64,000 nt of DNA, from positions 29,466-93,465 of the forward strand of contig CAZGWD010000013.1 of NCBI GenBank assembly GCA_964529415.1, given 5' to 3'. Position 1 is the first letter of the stretch. Every line of letters begins with the position of its first letter. Source of the stretch: an uncultured Leptospirales bacterium. GTDB lineage: Bacteria; Spirochaetota; UBA4802; UBA5550. The notes beneath the pieces were generated by a model. It made no database searches and was not told the origin of the DNA. It saw only the letters and a program-made list of their open reading frames with translations. Of this stretch, positions 24,207-29,963 are shown one piece after another. The position numbers were made by a program, and so were the translations under genes.

Positions 24207-24234
24207 ACTTTATAAGATTTTAAAATACACAATG

Positions 24235-24642
24235 GAACGCGGATGACGCGGATGATTATGATGATCGCGGATTTTTAAAGGATTTTAAGGGGTTTAGTAA
24301 TCCCCCCGTCCCCCAAAGGGGGCGAGTAGGAGTGGAATACAGGTGTTTTTTGAAAACCAAAGAAATATAGTACCTGCTTATATTTTTGAGCTTGTAGGAA
24401 ATCTATAAATCTATATGACAGAAACAAGATTGTATTTCTGATAAGTCTTGAAATAGAAACTTTGTGTATTGAAGTTGAATATGATAATATACGGTTTATA
24501 AATGAAGTTATAATTAATGACGTGCCCCCTTCGGGGGTCAGGGGGTTTTGAATAAAAAAAAGATATAAGAGGGCATGAGAATTTAATTGATAATTTTATT
24601 TTTATCTTAATAAATCATAAACAATCCGCGTCATCCGCGTTC
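24235..24642. mobile_element. MITE-like nested inverted-repeat element (copy 2 of the GC-hairpin element inside 19-bp perfect TIRs)
   Basis: Perfect 19-bp terminal inverted repeats gaacgcggatgacgcggat (24235-24253) and atccgcgtcatccgcgttc (24624-24642). Inside them, GC-hairpin arms at 24302-24326 and 24522-24545 are homologous to those at 4186-4210 and 4358-4383. No ORF. Confidence 0.45.
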
Positions 24643-24671
24643 TATTGCTTTTTTTTTGAGAAGATAAAATT

Positions 24672-25226
24672 TCAGTAGTTCGATATGGCGAGGTTGAGAA
24701 TAATATCTTCCATCATCTCTTTGGCTTCAATGCTCTCAGGGTTCATCTGCATATAGTTCTGGCATGAAATAAGCGCCATGAATAGCGATCCTGCTTCAAT
24801 GTATAGGCTGATCAGATTTAAATGTGTCTCGTCAATGTCCGGTTCGCTTTCAAGAGATTTTGTGTAATTGTAAACTGCTTTTTCAAAATCGCCCATTTCC
24901 CAGAAAACTCCTGCTAAATTTGCAAGTGTAATCGCATCGTCCGGATTGTGGCGCAGGGCTTTTTCAAGAACAATTTTTGATTCATCAAGCTTGCCCAATT
25001 CGCAGAGACTGATTCCAAGGCCGTTTAAAATGTCGGGGTCTGTATCGTCTATGGACGCTCCGAGGCTGAAAAGCTTTAATGCTTCCTCGTAATTTCCATT
25101 TTCTACAAATTCATATCCTGTATCTATGAGAAGATTGGGATCATTTTCGAAATCGTCTATATCGAGAGATTCTTCTCTCATGAGCAGGTTTTTTAAGTTG
25201 CTGTTGAATCTCTGTTTATCTTTCAT
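24672..25226 (-). CDS. TPR-repeat protein
   Basis: Multiple TPR-like helical repeats (YEEALKLFSLGASID, GLGISLCELGKLDESKIVLEKALRHNPDD, ANLAGVFWEMGDFEKAVYNYTKSLE). Confidence 0.6.
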   Translation of the reverse strand: MKDKQRFNSNLKNLLMREESLDIDDFENDPNLLIDTGYEFVENGNYEEALKLFSLGASIDDTDPDILNGLGISLCELGKLDESKIVLEKALRHNPDDAITLANLAGVFWEMGDFEKAVYNYTKSLESEPDIDETHLNLISLYIEAGSLFMALISCQNYMQMNPESIEAKEMMEDIILNLAISNY

Positions 25227-25751
25227 AGTTTTCTTTTTGGCTTAAAATCAGCCTAAAATGTAATATATCTTCAGAGTTATATTTTGTCAAGGATATTAGA
25301 CTTATTTTAAATTTTAGGGCTCAAATGCAGCTAATCGCATTTCGGCTACACTCAATGTGCGGTTATTGGTGCTTTGGAAGAGTAGGGCTCTGACCCCGCA
25401 TGATTTTGAAGACTGGTAAAGTTTGGAAAATGGGTTTTTTAATGCAGAGTATGAAAAAGGGGTCAGAGCATCCTTGTTTAATTTATTAAAGTAGACATAT
25501 TTTGAATTATTTATATTAAATTATAATGTTTCGAGGACAGTTGTTTAAAGATAGTAAAGCAATAAAGTTTATTTTAAATGAAATAGTGGACTTCCTGAAA
25601 AAGAGTACGGATGCTCTGACCCTTATTACCCTGAAAACGATCCAATTACCCCTTTCATAATATTAATCAATAAATCATCTTATAAATCTTGACTATTTAT
25701 AAAATAAACATAAATTTGTAATTAATACACATTCACAGGAGTTTTTGATAA

Positions 25752-28700
25752 ATGGCAAATATAAATGCGGCTGAGAGCCGTTTTTTCATTGGTATAGATT
25801 TAGGTTCTGTAACAGTAAAAGTTGTACTGCTTGATTCAGGGAAGAATGTCCTTGAGAAATTCTATCTCAGGCATAAAGGACACCCCGGACAGGAATTGCT
25901 GAAAATTCTTGAGGGCCTACTCGACAAATATCCGGCTGAAAAAATTGAAGCAATCGGCATTACAGGTTCCGGAGGCAAACGCCTTGCAAAGGTTCTGGGC
26001 GGAGTTTTTATAAATGAAGTTATTTCAGAGACAATAGCTGTAAGCTCGCTATATCCGGCAGTGAAAACAATTATAAATATCGGCGGGCAGGATTCGAAGC
26101 TGATTCTGGTTGACGGCAAGGCTGAACCAGGAAAATTCATTCTGGAAAATTTTTCCATGAATACCCTGTGCGCTGCAGGAACAGGCGCGTTTCTTGAGCA
26201 GCAGGCAGCGAGGCTTGGAATTTCCATAGAAGATGAATTCGGCGACATGGCTCTCAAGTCAAAGAATCCTCCGAGAATAGCGGGACGCTGTTCTGTTTTT
26301 GCAAAAAGCGACATGATACACCTTCAGCAGAAAGGCACAGCGGATTACGATATAGTTGCAGGACTGTGTTATGCCATGGCGAGAAATTTCAAGGCAACCA
26401 TCGGCAAGAACATGAAGTTTGAAAAGGATGTTGCATTCATCGGCGGTGTTGCGCGCAACAAGGGCATGGTCAAGGCATTCGAGGATGTTCTTGAAATAGG
26501 CGAAGGCAGCCTTGTCATTCCGGAAAACAATGCGCTCATAGGTGCGATTGGAGCTGCGTATAATGTAATTGACAGAACTGATCTTGAATTTATCGGGCTT
26601 GGCGAAATCAGGAAATATCTTAAAGAGCTGGTTGATCTTGATAAGGGGCATGAGCCTCTTTTCCTGAGAGAAGACCATCTTCTTTCAAAAGAAGAGACAA
26701 TTGAGTTTCACAAACCAGGCGAAAAAGTAAATGCGTATTTAGGGGTTGATGTGGGGTCCATCAGCACCAATGTGGTTTTAATAGATGAAAAAAAGCGAGT
26801 GCTTGCAAAAGCATATCTAAGAACCGGCGGAAAACCTATAGACGCAGTAAAACGCGGACTTCAGGAAATTTCAAACGACATCGGCGATTATGTTAATATT
26901 ATCGGCGCGTGCACAACAGGTTCAGGCAGATATCTCACAGGTGATTTTATCGGAGCGGATCTTGTTAAAGATGAAATTACAGCTCACGCACGCGGCGCGA
27001 TTGAAATAGATAAAGATGTAGACACAATTTTTGAAATAGGCGGGCAGGATTCAAAATACATCAGCATTGAAAACGGAGCTATTGTCGATTTCGAGATGAA
27101 CAAGGTTTGTGCTGCAGGAACAGGTTCATTTCTTGAAGAGCAGGCTGAGAGGCTTGGAGTTTCCATTCAGGATGAATTCAGCGATCTGGCTTTATGCGCG
27201 AAGGATCCGAGCAGATGCGGTGAAAGATGCACAGTATTTATGGAATCTGATCTTGTGCATCATCAGCAGAAGGGAGCGCAGAAAGAGGACATCATTGCAG
27301 GCTTGAGTTATTCTATTGCGTACAATTTTATAAATAAGGTTGTTGAGGACAGGAGAATCGGCAATCATATTTTCTTTCAGGGGGGAGTTGCATACAACAA
27401 GGGTGTTGTTGCAGCATTTGAAAAGGTAACGGGAAAGCTTGTTACAGTTCCGCCTCACCATGAGGTAATGGGTGCTTTCGGAGCTGCATTGCTTGCTATG
27501 GATAATGACCAGGGTGTTGTGAGCAGATTCAAGGGGTTTGACTGCACAAAAACCGAATATAAAATCACAACTTTTGAATGTCACCACTGCACAAACTTCT
27601 GTACCATAAACCGGGTACTGATAGAAGGGGAAGGCGATTTTTATTACGGAAGCAGATGCGACAGGTACGATATTAAAAAAAGCGAGAAGGTCAGGCATAA
27701 TGTTCCGGATTATTTTGCCGAGAGGGATGATCTTCTTAGAAATACCTATTCTAAAACTGTTCCGGAAGGTAAAGTAAAAGCAAGAATCGGAATACCTTTA
27801 TCAATGACTATTTACGAAGACTATCCGTTCTGGAAAGCGTTTTTCACTGAAATAGGATGCGAGCCGGTTTTATCGGATCCGACAAACAGAAAGCATATCA
27901 ACAGCGGTCTTGAAACTGTAGTTGAAGAAATATGTTTCCCTATGAAAGTTCTGCATGGACATGTGATTGATCTTATCGAAAAGAAAGTGGATTTTATTTT
28001 CATGCCTCAGATGATAGAACTAAATAATACCAATCCCGATATAAAGGGAAGTTTCCTGTGTCCGTATGTTCAGGGAATGCCGGATGTAATACGCACTGCA
28101 TTTGATTTTGATAAAATAGGAATACCTATTCTCAGGCCTGTTATAAAGTTCACTCTCGGGACTTCATTTCTTGAAAATGAGCTGCATAAATCTATAGGTA
28201 AAAAAGTCGGAGTCCGCAAAGGGAAAATTAAAAAAGCCCTGAAGACTGCTTTCAGTTCTCTTGAAAAATTTACAGCATCTGTTCAGGAAGCAGGCGAGAA
28301 AGCACTGAGTGAAATTAAAAAAGATGAAATTGCAGTAGTAATAGTAAGCAGGCCGTACAACGGATGCGACAGGGGAATCAATCTTGATATACCGAGAAAA
28401 TTTTATAATCTCGGAATCAAGGCTATACCAATGGATTATCTTCCGCTTAATTCTTTCTCTGTTGCAAAAGAGCTGCCTAACATGACATGGTGGTTCGGCC
28501 AGAGAATTTTATCAGCTGCAAAAATAATCCGCACGAACCCTAATCTGTATCCGGTTTATATTACTAATTTTGCATGCGGTCCGGATTCGTTTATAATACA
28601 GTACTTCAGGTATCTTATAGGAAACAAACCTACTCTGTATCTTGAGATAGATGAGCATAGCGCTGATGCAGGAATTGTTACCAGATCTGAAGCTTTTATC

Positions 28701-29963
28701 GACAGTTTGAAACATGCTGTTAGAAAAGCGCCGCTTTATAAAAATCTGCCTGAGTCTGTTCCAACGAGCCTTAAGGGCAGAAAATTATATATCCCGTACA
28801 TGGCAGATCACGCTTATGCTTTAAAAGCTGCTTTCAAGGGTAATGGCCTTGATGCGGAAGTTCTTCCTGAAACAGATGATGAAAGCCTTGAGTGGGGAAG
28901 AAAATATACCAACAGCAAGGAATGCTACCCGTACATTGTCACAACCGGCGATATGATCCGGAAATTAAAATCACCGGATTTCGATCCTGAGAAAACAGCA
29001 TTTTTTATGCCTGCATCGAGCAGTTTCTGCAGGCTCAATCATTATGAGTCATCGCAGAGGTTGATATTGCGCGAACTCGGTTATCCTGAAATACCGGTTT
29101 TCTCTCCTGATGCAGAGGACACGCTGTTTTCAGATCTCGACAGCGTTACCGAGGATTTCACAAAAGATGCGTGGAGAGGCGTTGTTGCAATTGATACAAT
29201 TTTTAAAGCACTTCGCGAAACCAAACCGTATGAATTGAACAAGGGCGAAACAGAAAAAGTTTACAGACGCGGCCTTGAGATGATCTGCAAAACTGTTGAA
29301 GAAAAAGGCGATCTTGTCAACACAATGAAAATAGTCCGCAGGGAATTTGATACAATTAAAACTGATAAAAGTAAAAAGAAACCTCTAATCGGCATTGTAG
29401 GTGAACTGTTCCTGAGATGGCATCCTTACAGCAATGCGCGCGTTGTTGAGCTTGTTGAGGAGCTTGGCGGAGAAGCATGGCTGCCTCCATTTTCTGAATC
29501 ATTGTATTATCTTAATGCTCTTGCAATGCATCATTCAAAGATGAAAAAAAATGTTAATGAATATTTAGGAACTTTTATTCAGGATCAGTATCAGCATATA
29601 GTTGACAAAAAACTTTCTGCAACTTTTTCCAATTACATAGTGAATTATCCTGAGCCGCGAATAAAGGATCTGTTTAAAATCAGTATGCCGTATTTCAATC
29701 CTATTGCTGAGAGCGAATCCCCAATGAGTATAGGCAAGTCGGTAAATTTTATTTCGCAGGGCGCGAGCGGTATCATCAATGTTATTCCATTTACATGTAT
29801 GCCCGGAACAATATCTGCGGCAATATTCAAGCGTTTGAAAGAGGATAACAAGGATGTGGCATTTCTTACATTGAAATATGACGGCAGCGGTGATGTTAAT
29901 ATACGCACAAGAGTTGAAGCTTTCATGCATCAGGCTGCGCAGTATGCTGATATGACGAATTAA
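25752..29963 (+). CDS. CoA-substrate-specific enzyme activase-type protein (tandem BadF/BadG/BcrA/BcrD ATPase domains plus HgdB/DUF2229-like C-terminal region)
   Basis: Two acetate/sugar-kinase-fold ATPase modules, each with GIDLGS/GVDVGS and the [4Fe-4S]-helix motif MNTLCAAGTGAFLEQQA / MNKVCAAGTGSFLEEQA. They are followed by ~800 aa with a CxxC...C region. Total length 1403 aa. Confidence 0.85.
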   Translation: MANINAAESRFFIGIDLGSVTVKVVLLDSGKNVLEKFYLRHKGHPGQELLKILEGLLDKYPAEKIEAIGITGSGGKRLAKVLGGVFINEVISETIAVSSLYPAVKTIINIGGQDSKLILVDGKAEPGKFILENFSMNTLCAAGTGAFLEQQAARLGISIEDEFGDMALKSKNPPRIAGRCSVFAKSDMIHLQQKGTADYDIVAGLCYAMARNFKATIGKNMKFEKDVAFIGGVARNKGMVKAFEDVLEIGEGSLVIPENNALIGAIGAAYNVIDRTDLEFIGLGEIRKYLKELVDLDKGHEPLFLREDHLLSKEETIEFHKPGEKVNAYLGVDVGSISTNVVLIDEKKRVLAKAYLRTGGKPIDAVKRGLQEISNDIGDYVNIIGACTTGSGRYLTGDFIGADLVKDEITAHARGAIEIDKDVDTIFEIGGQDSKYISIENGAIVDFEMNKVCAAGTGSFLEEQAERLGVSIQDEFSDLALCAKDPSRCGERCTVFMESDLVHHQQKGAQKEDIIAGLSYSIAYNFINKVVEDRRIGNHIFFQGGVAYNKGVVAAFEKVTGKLVTVPPHHEVMGAFGAALLAMDNDQGVVSRFKGFDCTKTEYKITTFECHHCTNFCTINRVLIEGEGDFYYGSRCDRYDIKKSEKVRHNVPDYFAERDDLLRNTYSKTVPEGKVKARIGIPLSMTIYEDYPFWKAFFTEIGCEPVLSDPTNRKHINSGLETVVEEICFPMKVLHGHVIDLIEKKVDFIFMPQMIELNNTNPDIKGSFLCPYVQGMPDVIRTAFDFDKIGIPILRPVIKFTLGTSFLENELHKSIGKKVGVRKGKIKKALKTAFSSLEKFTASVQEAGEKALSEIKKDEIAVVIVSRPYNGCDRGINLDIPRKFYNLGIKAIPMDYLPLNSFSVAKELPNMTWWFGQRILSAAKIIRTNPNLYPVYITNFACGPDSFIIQYFRYLIGNKPTLYLEIDEHSADAGIVTRSEAFIDSLKHAVRKAPLYKNLPESVPTSLKGRKLYIPYMADHAYALKAAFKGNGLDAEVLPETDDESLEWGRKYTNSKECYPYIVTTGDMIRKLKSPDFDPEKTAFFMPASSSFCRLNHYESSQRLILRELGYPEIPVFSPDAEDTLFSDLDSVTEDFTKDAWRGVVAIDTIFKALRETKPYELNKGETEKVYRRGLEMICKTVEEKGDLVNTMKIVRREFDTIKTDKSKKKPLIGIVGELFLRWHPYSNARVVELVEELGGEAWLPPFSESLYYLNALAMHHSKMKKNVNEYLGTFIQDQYQHIVDKKLSATFSNYIVNYPEPRIKDLFKISMPYFNPIAESESPMSIGKSVNFISQGASGIINVIPFTCMPGTISAAIFKRLKEDNKDVAFLTLKYDGSGDVNIRTRVEAFMHQAAQYADMTN

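What the first reader, a model, noticed from the sequence alone, without database searches (positions are those of the whole stretch)
25385..25623. Intergenic region with mutually exclusive long-range pairings (possible riboregulator or small hairpin repeat)
Segment B ggggtcagagcatcc (25459-25473) can pair 11/11 with upstream A gctctgacccc (25387-25397). Alternatively it can pair 14/14 with downstream C ggatgctctgaccc (25609-25622). A and C are direct repeats within a ~20-nt shared context (aagagtaGGgCTCTGACCC versus aagagtacGGatgCTCTGACCC). The region lies in a 525-bp gap between the divergently transcribed TPR gene and the 1403-aa activase gene. Competing A:B and B:C helices resemble attenuator or riboswitch-type switching, or a half-duplicated miniature inverted-repeat element.
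Basis: seen in the sequence. Interest (0 to 1): 0.5.

Follow-up and report, generated by a model that had tools for sequence, protein, structure and literature searches.

The report
Transposase-linked inverted repeat cluster, not riboswitch
The three pairing segments are copies of one 11-base DNA word (GCTCTGACCCC) that flanks a family of small tyrosine (HUH/Y1) transposase genes in many bacteria, so this is a gene-less cluster of mobile-element end repeats lying between two promoters, not an RNA switch.

Summary
A (25387-25397, +), B (25459-25473, inverted) and C (25609-25622, +) exist as described. The shared 10-mer occurs 3 times in 240 bp and nowhere else in the 64 kb window (0.03 expected).

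The riboswitch or attenuator reading is not supported.
- There is no Rfam match.
- The block lies upstream of both conserved sigma-70-like promoters.
- In three close relatives (83-94% nucleotide identity) the core word is kept, but its copy number and orientation differ. Two of the relatives have no inverted copy, so neither helix can form there.

The reverse complement of the core, GGGGTCAGAGC, fits the published GGGGWSAS consensus. That consensus describes the terminal inverted repeats flanking TIRYT genes ("TIRtrons"; Di Nocera 2013; TnpA-Y1 subclass 2.1 of Quentin 2018).

Two independent tests tie the word to these genes.
- Of 119 genome loci chosen only by the motif, 9 encode a Y1 transposase.
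- Of 80 metagenome loci chosen only by Y1 protein similarity, 75 carry the exact 9-mer. It usually sits about 70-90 nt upstream and about 20-35 nt downstream of the gene, in inverted orientation.

The window itself, from an uncultured Spirochaetota bacterium, has no Y1 gene.

Verdict: a non-autonomous cluster of TIR repeats, and a new member of a known but poorly studied kind.

The parts
25387..25397 (+). Copy A of the TIR core GCTCTGACCCC (11/11). It is preceded by AGAGTA at 25379-25384. AGAG at 25379-25382 can pair with the CTCT at 25388-25391 inside the core.
   Evidence: Present in the window and L001, absent in L002. The small AGAG/CTCT hairpin appears in the DNA fold.
25459..25473 (-). 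Copy B. The core GCTCTGACCCC lies on the minus strand at 25459-25469. The minus-strand repeat begins GGAT, which reads as ATCC at 25470-25473 on the plus strand; this extension is shared with C. An AGAGTA hexamer lies at 25446-25451 on the plus strand.
   Evidence: Orthologous copy in L002, with the 10-nt core unchanged while the flanks diverge.
25609..25623 (+). Copy C. It has a GGAT extension and the core GCTCTGACCCT (10/11; the last C is a T). It is preceded by AGAGTA at 25602-25607.
   Evidence: Orthologous copy in L002.
25642..25652 (+). Copy D, decayed: CCAATTACCCC, 7 of 11 bases.
   Evidence: It aligns to an intact ATGCTCTGACCCCC in L002.
25321..25676 (.). Variable middle of the intergenic region. 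It differs in length and content between close relatives and holds all the core copies.
   Evidence: Alignments A1, A2 and A4. Relatives are 83-94% identical overall.
25262..25290 (-). Sigma-70-like promoter for the TPR gene: TTGACA-17-TATATT, 11 of 12. It lies in the conserved left flank, outside the repeat block.
   Evidence: The -35 element is conserved in all four relatives. Consensus match only; no TSS data.
25689..25716 (+). Sigma-70-like promoter for the 1403-aa activase gene: TTGACT-16-TAAATT. It lies in the conserved right flank, outside the repeat block.
   Evidence: Conserved in all four relatives. Consensus match only.

Best explanation
A, B, C and the decayed D are copies of the 11-nt core (reverse complement GGGGTCAGAGC) of the terminal inverted repeat that flanks genes for a family of HUH/Y1 tyrosine transposases. 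These are the TIRYT proteins, RAYT-like, IS200-related class 2 TnpA-Y1. The block at 25387-25652 is a gene-less, non-autonomous cluster of such end repeats, comparable to a REPIN, BIME or MITE. It sits in the dispensable DNA between two divergent promoters.

Shown:
- The core is the only conserved part of the block.
- It is gained, lost and re-oriented between close relatives.
- The same word brackets Y1 genes in inverted orientation in Spirochaetota and Proteobacteria. It is also scattered as singles, dimers and clusters through those genomes.

Inferred, by analogy with IS200/IS605 TnpA and E. coli TnpA-REP:
- A Y1 enzyme encoded elsewhere in the genome, or formerly present, binds and cuts single-stranded DNA at or next to this word and re-joins it. 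This copies, deletes and inverts the units.
- The A:B and B:C complementarities are a by-product of having inverted copies. If they matter at all, it is as DNA hairpins on single-stranded DNA, not as an RNA switch.
For: 1. Motif side. Nine of them encode a Y1_Tnp protein (Pfam PF01797 E 1e-10 to 6e-11). These proteins score nearer NCBIfam REP_Tyr_transpos than IS200. A rough expectation from published gene frequencies is about 0.1 loci.

2. Layout around Y1 genes. In L119, L122, L080 and L027 the layout is [GGGGTCAGAGC]x2-3, then the Y1 gene, then [GCTCTGACCCC]x1-2. Gene-less clusters have the same layout: 33 cases of minus-then-plus against 3 of plus-then-minus.

3. Protein side, an independent ascertainment. 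80 metagenome loci were chosen only by Y1 similarity.
- 75 carry the exact 9-mer.
- Density is 4.96 per kb within 300 nt of the gene and 0.51 per kb farther away. Thirty permuted 9-mers give 0-6 copies near the gene.
- There is an upstream plus copy in 54 of 76 loci, a downstream minus copy in 50 of 78, and both in 42.

4. Plasmid-borne subclass 2.1 genes show the same word or near variants. Skermanella has GGGGTCAGAGT twice upstream. R. rubrum has AAAAGGGGTCAGACC and GGTCTGACCCCTTTT flanking the gene.

5. The word fits the published TIR consensus GGGGWSAS / GGGG[AT][CG]A[CG] for TIRYT genes (PMC3733652 section 16; PMC6006769 section 15). The proteobacterial proteins carry the subclass 2.1 signatures NHVH, WE and YIELNP at about 230 aa.

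6. Local evolution. The cores of B and C are invariant between the window and L002 while the surrounding DNA is about 72% identical. A, D and the extra copies come and go among relatives.

7. The window is from Spirochaetota (Fmt homologs). This is the phylum in which the second Y1 clade and its repeats abound.
Against: - There is no Y1 gene in the 64 kb window, and the rest of the genome could not be read. A cognate enzyme in this organism is therefore unproven.
- The word is rare here, 3-4 copies in 64 kb and all in one spacer, against about 0.5 per kb in Y1-bearing contigs. These copies may be relics.
- Single units are not palindromes and lack the GT[AG]G foot of canonical REPs. The recognition mode is unknown.
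- No transposition or cleavage by any TIRYT has been shown experimentally. Only two papers in the searchable library mention them.
- The Spirochaetota-type Y1 clade (NHFH, WN, YxxxNP, about 195 aa) has the opposite repeat polarity to subclass 2.1. Its subclass was not resolved.
Confidence: 0.8

Rival explanations
1. A cis-regulatory RNA (riboswitch, attenuator or thermosensor) in which B pairs alternately with A or C to control the activase or TPR gene.
For: A:B (11/11) and B:C (14/14) are mutually exclusive. The segment folds better than shuffles, with z about -3.
Against: - No Rfam match, even at E<=10.
- The block lies upstream of both conserved promoter-like elements.
- L003 and L001 have no inverted copy and L002 has no A, so the switch cannot form in close relatives.
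- The B:C extension is not maintained in L002.
- The same word occurs between convergent genes, inside coding sequences in all frames, and around transposase genes in other phyla.
Confidence: 0.03
2. Binding sites (operators or upstream activating sites) for a host transcription factor that co-regulates the divergent TPR and activase genes.
For: There are three to four copies of a non-palindromic 11-mer between divergent promoters. The core is conserved while its flanks drift. A LysR gene lies 2 kb away.
Against: - Copy number, spacing and orientation are not conserved among relatives that keep both promoters and both genes.
- Elsewhere the word sits between convergent genes and within genes.
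- Its only consistent gene partner is a Y1 transposase, and it brackets that gene on both sides.
Confidence: 0.07
3. Decayed relics of a past insertion. The word came from a Y1 element, but nothing in this genome acts on it any longer and it has no activity or effect.
For: There is no Y1 gene in 64 kb. There are only 3-4 copies, all in one spacer. Copy D has decayed.
Against: The cores of B and C are perfectly kept against about 72% identity in their surroundings. Every one of four relatives has 2-3 intact cores in different arrangements, which suggests continuing turnover or homogenisation.
Confidence: 0.3
4. A genome-wide uptake-signal-like or other host 'word' selected for its own sake, as with DUS/USS or Chi. 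The Y1 association would then be secondary.
For: In some Spirochaetota contigs the word reaches about 0.5-1.2 per kb. It lies inside real genes in all frames and both orientations.
Against: - Its density is ten-fold higher next to Y1 genes, at fixed distances and in inverted pairs.
- The same word occurs in unrelated phyla together with their own Y1 genes.
- It is nearly absent from this window.
Confidence: 0.05

Closest known systems
TIRtrons: TIR repeats associated with TIRYT genes (Di Nocera, De Gregorio and Rocco 2013, PMC3733652; TnpA-Y1 subclass 2.1 of Quentin et al. 2018, PMC6006769; RAYT Group 1 of Bertels et al. 2017, PMC5581495)
   Same: - The core fits GGGGWSAS.
- The repeats bracket a Y1 (HUH plus Y---NP) gene in inverted orientation.
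- They also occur without the gene as singles, dimers and clusters.
- Single units are not REP-like palindromes.
- The proteobacterial proteins found here carry the subclass 2.1 signatures NHVH, WE and YIELNP.
   Different: - The window holds only the repeats, with no gene.
- The word seen here is longer and more exact (11 nt, identical in Spirochaetota, Beta- and Gammaproteobacteria) than the published 8-nt degenerate consensus.
- The Spirochaetota-type proteins are shorter, at about 195 aa. They have NHFH, WN and YI/LxxNP motifs. Their repeats face the gene with the CCCC/GGGG side, the opposite polarity to subclass 2.1.
- Spirochaetota are not listed among the main hosts in those papers.
REP / REPIN / BIME elements with RAYT (TnpA-REP) genes
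   Same: - Short extragenic repeats in inverted doublets and clusters.
- A single-copy-type Y1 gene flanked by its own repeats.
- Turnover between related genomes.
- Hairpin potential on single-stranded DNA.
   Different: Canonical REPs are 20-40 nt imperfect palindromes with a 5' GT[AG]G foot. The units here are not self-complementary, and the conserved part is an 11-nt non-palindromic word.
IS200/IS605 and their miniature derivatives (PATEs)
   Same: A Y1 HUH enzyme of the same fold family, and non-autonomous short derivatives.
   Different: IS200 TnpA (Y---Q motif) uses subterminal hairpins and different left and right ends, not terminal inverted repeats. The proteins here score far below the IS200 model.
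Transcription attenuators and riboswitches with alternative helices
   Same: One segment can pair with either of two others.
   Different: No family match, not in a predicted 5' UTR, the pairings are absent in close relatives, and conservation is of a DNA word rather than of base pairs.

Membership tests
TIRYT-associated TIR repeats (TIRtron family) | Repeat core fits the consensus GGGGWSAS / GGGG[AT][CG]A[CG] | tested here: met
   A and B read GGGGTCAG on the appropriate strand. C reads AGGGTCAG, one base off. The consensus is taken from PMC3733652 and PMC6006769.
TIRYT-associated TIR repeats (TIRtron family) | The same repeat flanks a Y1 tyrosine transposase gene on both sides in inverted orientation | tested here: met
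   Met in related and unrelated genomes, not in the window. See L119, L122, L080, L027, L103 and L018. Of 80 protein-selected loci, 42 have both flanking copies and 75 have at least one.
TIRYT-associated TIR repeats (TIRtron family) | A cognate Y1 gene in the same genome | not testable with these tools
   There is none in the 64 kb window (tblastn). The rest of the MAG could not be fetched.
TIRYT-associated TIR repeats (TIRtron family) | Gene-less copies occur as singles, dimers or clusters, mostly extragenic | tested here: met
   The window has a 3-4 copy cluster in one spacer. Many loci show the same. In low-GC contigs, 36 of 61 distant copies lie in the 27% of DNA outside long ORFs.
TIRYT-associated TIR repeats (TIRtron family) | The associated protein has the HUH and Y---NP motifs of class 2 TnpA-Y1, with the subclass 2.1 signature NHVH/NH[YF]H, W[EQ], YIELNP | tested here: inconclusive
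   The proteobacterial proteins meet the subclass 2.1 signature. The Spirochaetota-type proteins have NHFH/NHIH and Y---NP but WN and YI/L-A/G-Y/F-NP at about 195 aa. Class 2 is met; the subclass is unresolved.
Canonical REP/REPIN-RAYT | Each unit is a 20-40 nt imperfect palindrome with a 5' GT[AG]G at the foot of the stem | tested here: not met
   The 11-mer and its flanks are not self-complementary. GTAG precedes copy A only. C and the L002 copy have GTAC, and most copies have neither.
Canonical REP/REPIN-RAYT | Inverted doublets separated by a short spacer | tested here: met
   A-B has a 61-nt spacer and B-C a 135-nt spacer. Doublets of doublets are seen in many loci.
Riboswitch / transcription attenuator | Match to a curated RNA family | tested here: not met
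   Rfam 15 gave no match at the gathering threshold and only chance-level matches at E<=10. There were also none on 18 other motif loci.
Riboswitch / transcription attenuator | Alternative helices conserved, with compensatory changes, in orthologous leaders | tested here: not met
   L003 and L001 lack any inverted copy and L002 lacks A. Only the core sequence is conserved.
Riboswitch / transcription attenuator | Located in the transcribed 5' leader of the regulated gene | tested here: inconclusive
   The conserved promoter-like elements place both predicted starts outside the block, but no transcript data are available.

The most novel reading that the evidence does not exclude
The exact 11-nt word GCTCTGACCCC may be the shared recognition or cleavage site of a very broad, cross-phylum set of class 2 Y1 enzymes. 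That set would include a large, so far unclassified Spirochaetota clade (over 300 metagenomic members) whose repeats have the opposite polarity to subclass 2.1. In these hosts the word spreads not only between genes but into coding sequences, in all frames, at up to about 1 per kb. That would point to a copy-or-convert mechanism, or a host-level use of the word, different from classical cut-and-paste of REPINs. The turnover seen in this intergenic spacer would be one local trace of that activity.
Probability: 0.25. Interest if true: 0.55.

Novelty: new member of a known kind. Interest (0 to 1): 0.3.

Why it matters
For this window it removes a false lead. There is no riboregulator in front of the activase gene, only mobile-element debris between two promoters.

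More broadly, TIRYT elements are almost unstudied; two papers in the searchable library mention them and there is no biochemistry. The data gathered here give a sharper target word of 11 nt, identical across phyla. They also give fixed distances of the repeats from the gene, two opposite polarities, and a large Spirochaetota clade. This makes a direct in-vitro test of binding and cleavage easy to design. It would also help annotation pipelines to recognise these repeats rather than flagging them as RNA structures.

Tried and rejected
- **Rfam.** Scans of the window at the gathering threshold, of the spacer at E<=10, and of 18 other motif loci found nothing relevant. There are no tRNA or tmRNA genes.
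- **Literature.** A full-text search for the 11-mer returned only eukaryotic primers.
- **Exact-protein look-ups.** P0001 and P0002 were not on record. Cluster members P0122 and P0121 gave the relatives instead.
- **PDB.** Sequence searches with two Y1 proteins gave no hits.
- **Alternative-sigma promoter.** I considered sigma-E-type TCTGA and sigma-32-type CCCCAT. I rejected them because there is no conserved -35 at a fixed distance and many clusters lie between convergent genes.
- **Shine-Dalgarno plus start codon.** I considered reading the reverse complement this way. I rejected it because ATG follows in only a minority of copies.
- **DNA uptake sequence.** I considered this because the word occurs inside genes in L005. 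I rejected it as the primary explanation because of the fixed association with Y1 genes and its rarity in the window.
- **Chance in the genome scan.** Many hits are GC-rich genomes in which any repeat family could contain the 10-mer by chance. This is why the protein-side test and the plasmid check were added.
- **Other hits.** Some hits (tandem 12-13-nt arrays in Gemmatimonadaceae, a 27/54-nt periodic array in Methanotrichaceae) may be unrelated and were not used as evidence.
- **Y1 pseudogene.** tblastn found no Y1 remnant between the copies in the window.

Full report
**1. The observation**

The sequence is as described.
- A is gctctgacccc at 25387-25397.
- B is ggggtcagagcatcc at 25459-25473.
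- C is ggatgctctgaccc at 25609-25622.

A:B is an 11/11 inverted repeat with 61 nt between the arms. B:C is 14/14, extendable to 19 nt at 89%, with 135 nt between the arms. A and C share aagagta..gg..gctctgaccc.

The spacer between the TPR gene (24672-25226, minus strand; TPR families) and the 1403-aa BcrAD_BadFG/DUF2229 activase gene (25752-29963) is 525 bp.

The 10-mer GCTCTGACCC occurs three times in the 64 kb window, all here, against 0.03 expected. The segment folds better than shuffles: z = -3.2 and -3.4 as RNA, and -2.8 as DNA.

**2. Local context argues against an RNA switch**

Rfam gives nothing for the window at the gathering threshold and only chance-level matches in the spacer at E<=10. 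No tRNA or tmRNA gene is present.

The consensus scan finds two sigma-70-like promoters: TTGACA-17-TATATT (25290-25262, minus strand) for the TPR gene, and TTGACT-16-TAAATT (25689-25716) for the activase gene. Both lie in the flanks of the spacer.

Three related loci were recovered:
- L001, 92-94% nucleotide identity to the window.
- L002, from assembly GCA_964392365.1, about 89%.
- L003, about 83%.

In the four-way alignment the promoter-bearing flanks are conserved. The middle (window about 25321-25676) differs in length and content. The A-C block therefore lies upstream of both predicted transcription starts. This is an inference from consensus matches and conservation; there are no transcript data.

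**3. What is conserved is a word, not the pairings**

Every relative has 2-3 copies of (T)GCTCTGACC(CC) in this spacer, but in different arrangements.
- The window has A(+), B(-) and C(+), plus a decayed D at 25642-25652.
- L002 has B(-), C(+) and an intact D(+), but no A.
- L003 has three copies, all plus.
- L001 has two tandem plus copies.

L003 and L001 thus cannot form either helix. Between the window and L002 the cores of B and C are unchanged while the DNA around them is only about 72% identical. The 4-bp extension that makes B:C 14/14 in the window is not kept in L002.

**4. The word is widespread and clustered**

Fourteen are from Spirochaetota or Leptospirales MAGs with 34-59% G+C. 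The rest are from Oxalobacteraceae (Massilia, Telluria), Casimicrobiaceae, several Gammaproteobacteria, Gemmatimonadaceae and others.

Flanks differ by lineage but the core is the same. A layout recurs: [GGGGTCAGAGC]x1-4, a 60-170 nt spacer, then [GCTCTGACCCC]x1-4. Among neighbouring opposite-strand copies 30-300 nt apart, this order occurs 33 times and the reverse order 3 times.

Clusters often lie between convergent genes, which does not fit promoter or operator sites. In contig L005 the word also lies inside real genes (ApbE-like, HAD) in three frames and both orientations. Rfam finds no family on 18 of these loci.

Some GC-rich hits may be chance inclusions of the 10-mer in unrelated repeat families. 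I therefore did not rely on this scan alone.

**5. Link to a transposase**

L005 encodes a 195-aa Y1_Tnp protein (PF01797, E 6e-11) next to copies of the word. tblastn with this and related proteins finds Y1 genes in 9 of the 119 motif-selected loci.

Published figures put class 2 genes in about a quarter of species at 1-2 copies (PMC6006769). From these, roughly 0.1 loci would be expected. This is a rough estimate of my own.

In L119 (Telluria), L122 (Massilia), L080 and L027 the gene is bracketed by 2-3 GGGGTCAGAGC units upstream and 1-2 GCTCTGACCCC units downstream. This is the same layout as the gene-less clusters. It is the relation expected between an autonomous element and its miniature derivatives.

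**6. Independent test from the protein side**

Eighty metagenome loci were selected only by similarity to the Spirochaetota-type Y1 protein: 47-100% identity, 72 distinct gene sequences, drawn from 309 confirmed hits.
- 75 of the 80 carry the exact 9-mer GCTCTGACC.
- Density is 4.96 per kb within 300 nt of the gene and 0.51 per kb beyond. Thirty permuted 9-mers give 0-6 copies near the gene.
- A plus copy lies 40-160 nt upstream of the start (mostly 67-90 nt) in 54 of 76 loci. A minus copy lies within 60 nt after the stop (mostly 9-37 nt) in 50 of 78. Both are present in 42.
- Only (G)GCTCTGACCCC is conserved among these ends.

In this clade the CCCC/GGGG side faces the gene. That is the opposite polarity to the proteobacterial elements.

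Six plasmid-borne homologues of the proteobacterial type were also read.
- Skermanella has GGGGTCAGAGT twice upstream.
- R. rubrum has AAAAGGGGTCAGACC and GGTCTGACCCCTTTT flanking the gene.
- P. aeruginosa has a GGGGACAGAT variant on both sides.
- Two showed nothing clear.

**7. Comparison with what is known**

Di Nocera et al. 2013 described RAYT-like genes flanked not by REPs but by terminal inverted repeats. They named them TIRYTs and TIRtrons. Many of the repeats share GGGGWSAS, and in some species the repeats form moderately abundant families organised in dimers or clusters (PMC3733652).

Quentin et al. 2018 place most TIRYTs in TnpA-Y1 subclass 2.1, which corresponds to Group 1 of Bertels et al. 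Its signatures are NHVH/NH[YF]H, W[EQ] and YIELNP, with a median length of 238 aa. They found no REP-like hairpins there (for the groups).

GGGGTCAGAGC fits GGGGWSAS. The proteobacterial proteins found here have NHVH, LWEGR and YIELNP or YIDLNP at about 230 aa. The Spirochaetota-type proteins have NHFH or NHIH, FWNERF and WY[IL][AG][YF]NP at about 195 aa. That is class 2 (Y---NP), but the subclass is unresolved.

All of these proteins score nearer the NCBIfam REP_Tyr_transpos model than the IS200 model, though below its cut-off.

Canonical REP membership fails. The units are not palindromes and have no consistent GT[AG]G foot.

**8. Mechanism**

Shown:
- The word brackets Y1 genes.
- It is dispersed with and without them.
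- It turns over between relatives while its core is held constant.

Inferred, from the established chemistry of IS200/IS605 TnpA and E. coli TnpA-REP:
- A Y1 enzyme acts on single-stranded DNA at or beside the word.
- Inverted copies can form DNA hairpins.
- Units are duplicated, deleted or inverted as a result.

No TIRYT has been tested experimentally; only two papers in the library mention the name.

For this window, the enzyme gene is not within 64 kb and the word is rare here. The copies may be targets of an enzyme encoded elsewhere, or relics. I put about 0.8 on the identity of the repeats and markedly less on current activity.

The organism is an uncultured member of Spirochaetota. All named Fmt homologues are Spirochaetota or Leptospirales MAGs at 53-58% identity.

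**9. Verdict**

The finding is a gene-less cluster of TIRYT-type terminal inverted repeats between two divergent promoters. It is a new member of a known but poorly studied kind. The riboswitch or attenuator idea is not supported, and the miniature inverted-repeat idea is essentially right.

The by-products are of modest wider interest and directly testable: an exact 11-nt cross-phylum core, two polarities, a large Spirochaetota Y1 clade, and intragenic copies.

Noticed in passing
window 24207-24671: The neighbouring spacer lies between convergent genes. It holds a perfect 19-nt inverted repeat, GAACGCGGATGACGCGGAT at 24235-24253 and its complement at 24624-24642, unique in the window (0 expected). 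The repeat flanks about 370 bp of AT-rich DNA, which also contains GC hairpins (CCCCCAAAGGGGG; CCCCCTTCGGGGG followed by TCAGGGGG). One of these matches GGGGWSAS at 24534-24541. It looks like a separate miniature inverted-repeat element.
   Followed up: partly
window 25767-25781: A terminator-like hairpin, GCGGCTGAGAGCCG followed by TTTTTTC, lies inside codons 6-12 of the activase gene. The stem is kept in all four relatives; L003 changes only a loop base. It could affect translation initiation or early transcription. Not examined further.
   Followed up: no
L005 4350-6141 (same contig as L123) and L124: The 11-nt word lies five times inside two real genes (ApbE-like flavin transferase, HAD hydrolase), in three reading frames and both orientations, without breaking the frames. 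The copies are at the same positions in a second species whose Y1 protein is 85% identical. In low-GC Y1-bearing contigs, 25 of 61 distant copies lie in long ORFs. How a transposon end word enters coding sequence in frame is unexplained.
   Followed up: partly
L076 4821-4889; L021 4811-4880 and 7608-7677; L064, L028, L113: Tandem arrays of the core occur in several loci. An 18-nt period array, (GCTCTGACCCCGAGTTTC)n, lies upstream of a Y1 gene in a Spirochaetota single-cell genome. 12-13-nt period arrays occur in Gemmatimonadaceae. In L021, two six-copy arrays in inverted orientation bracket 2.7 kb with no detectable Y1 gene.
   Followed up: no
L119, L122, L080, L027 versus L123-L202: There are two opposite polarities of the same word around Y1 genes. 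In the proteobacterial subclass 2.1 type the GGGG side faces outward. In most Spirochaetota-type elements the GGGG/CCCC side faces the gene. The window contains one pair of each polarity, A-B and B-C.
   Followed up: partly
window 25379-25384, 25446-25451, 25602-25607: The hexamer AGAGTA lies 2-8 nt upstream of each of A, B and C on the plus strand, whatever the orientation of the core. It also lies next to copies in L001, L002, L150 and L153. With A and C, its AGAG can pair with the CTCT of the core. Its meaning near the inverted copy B is unclear.
   Followed up: no
window 25752-29963: The closest homologues of the 1403-aa activase outside this lineage (57-63% identity) include proteins from Lokiarchaeum / Promethearchaeota MAGs as well as Spirochaetales. 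This hints at inter-domain transfer of this fused activase.
   Followed up: no
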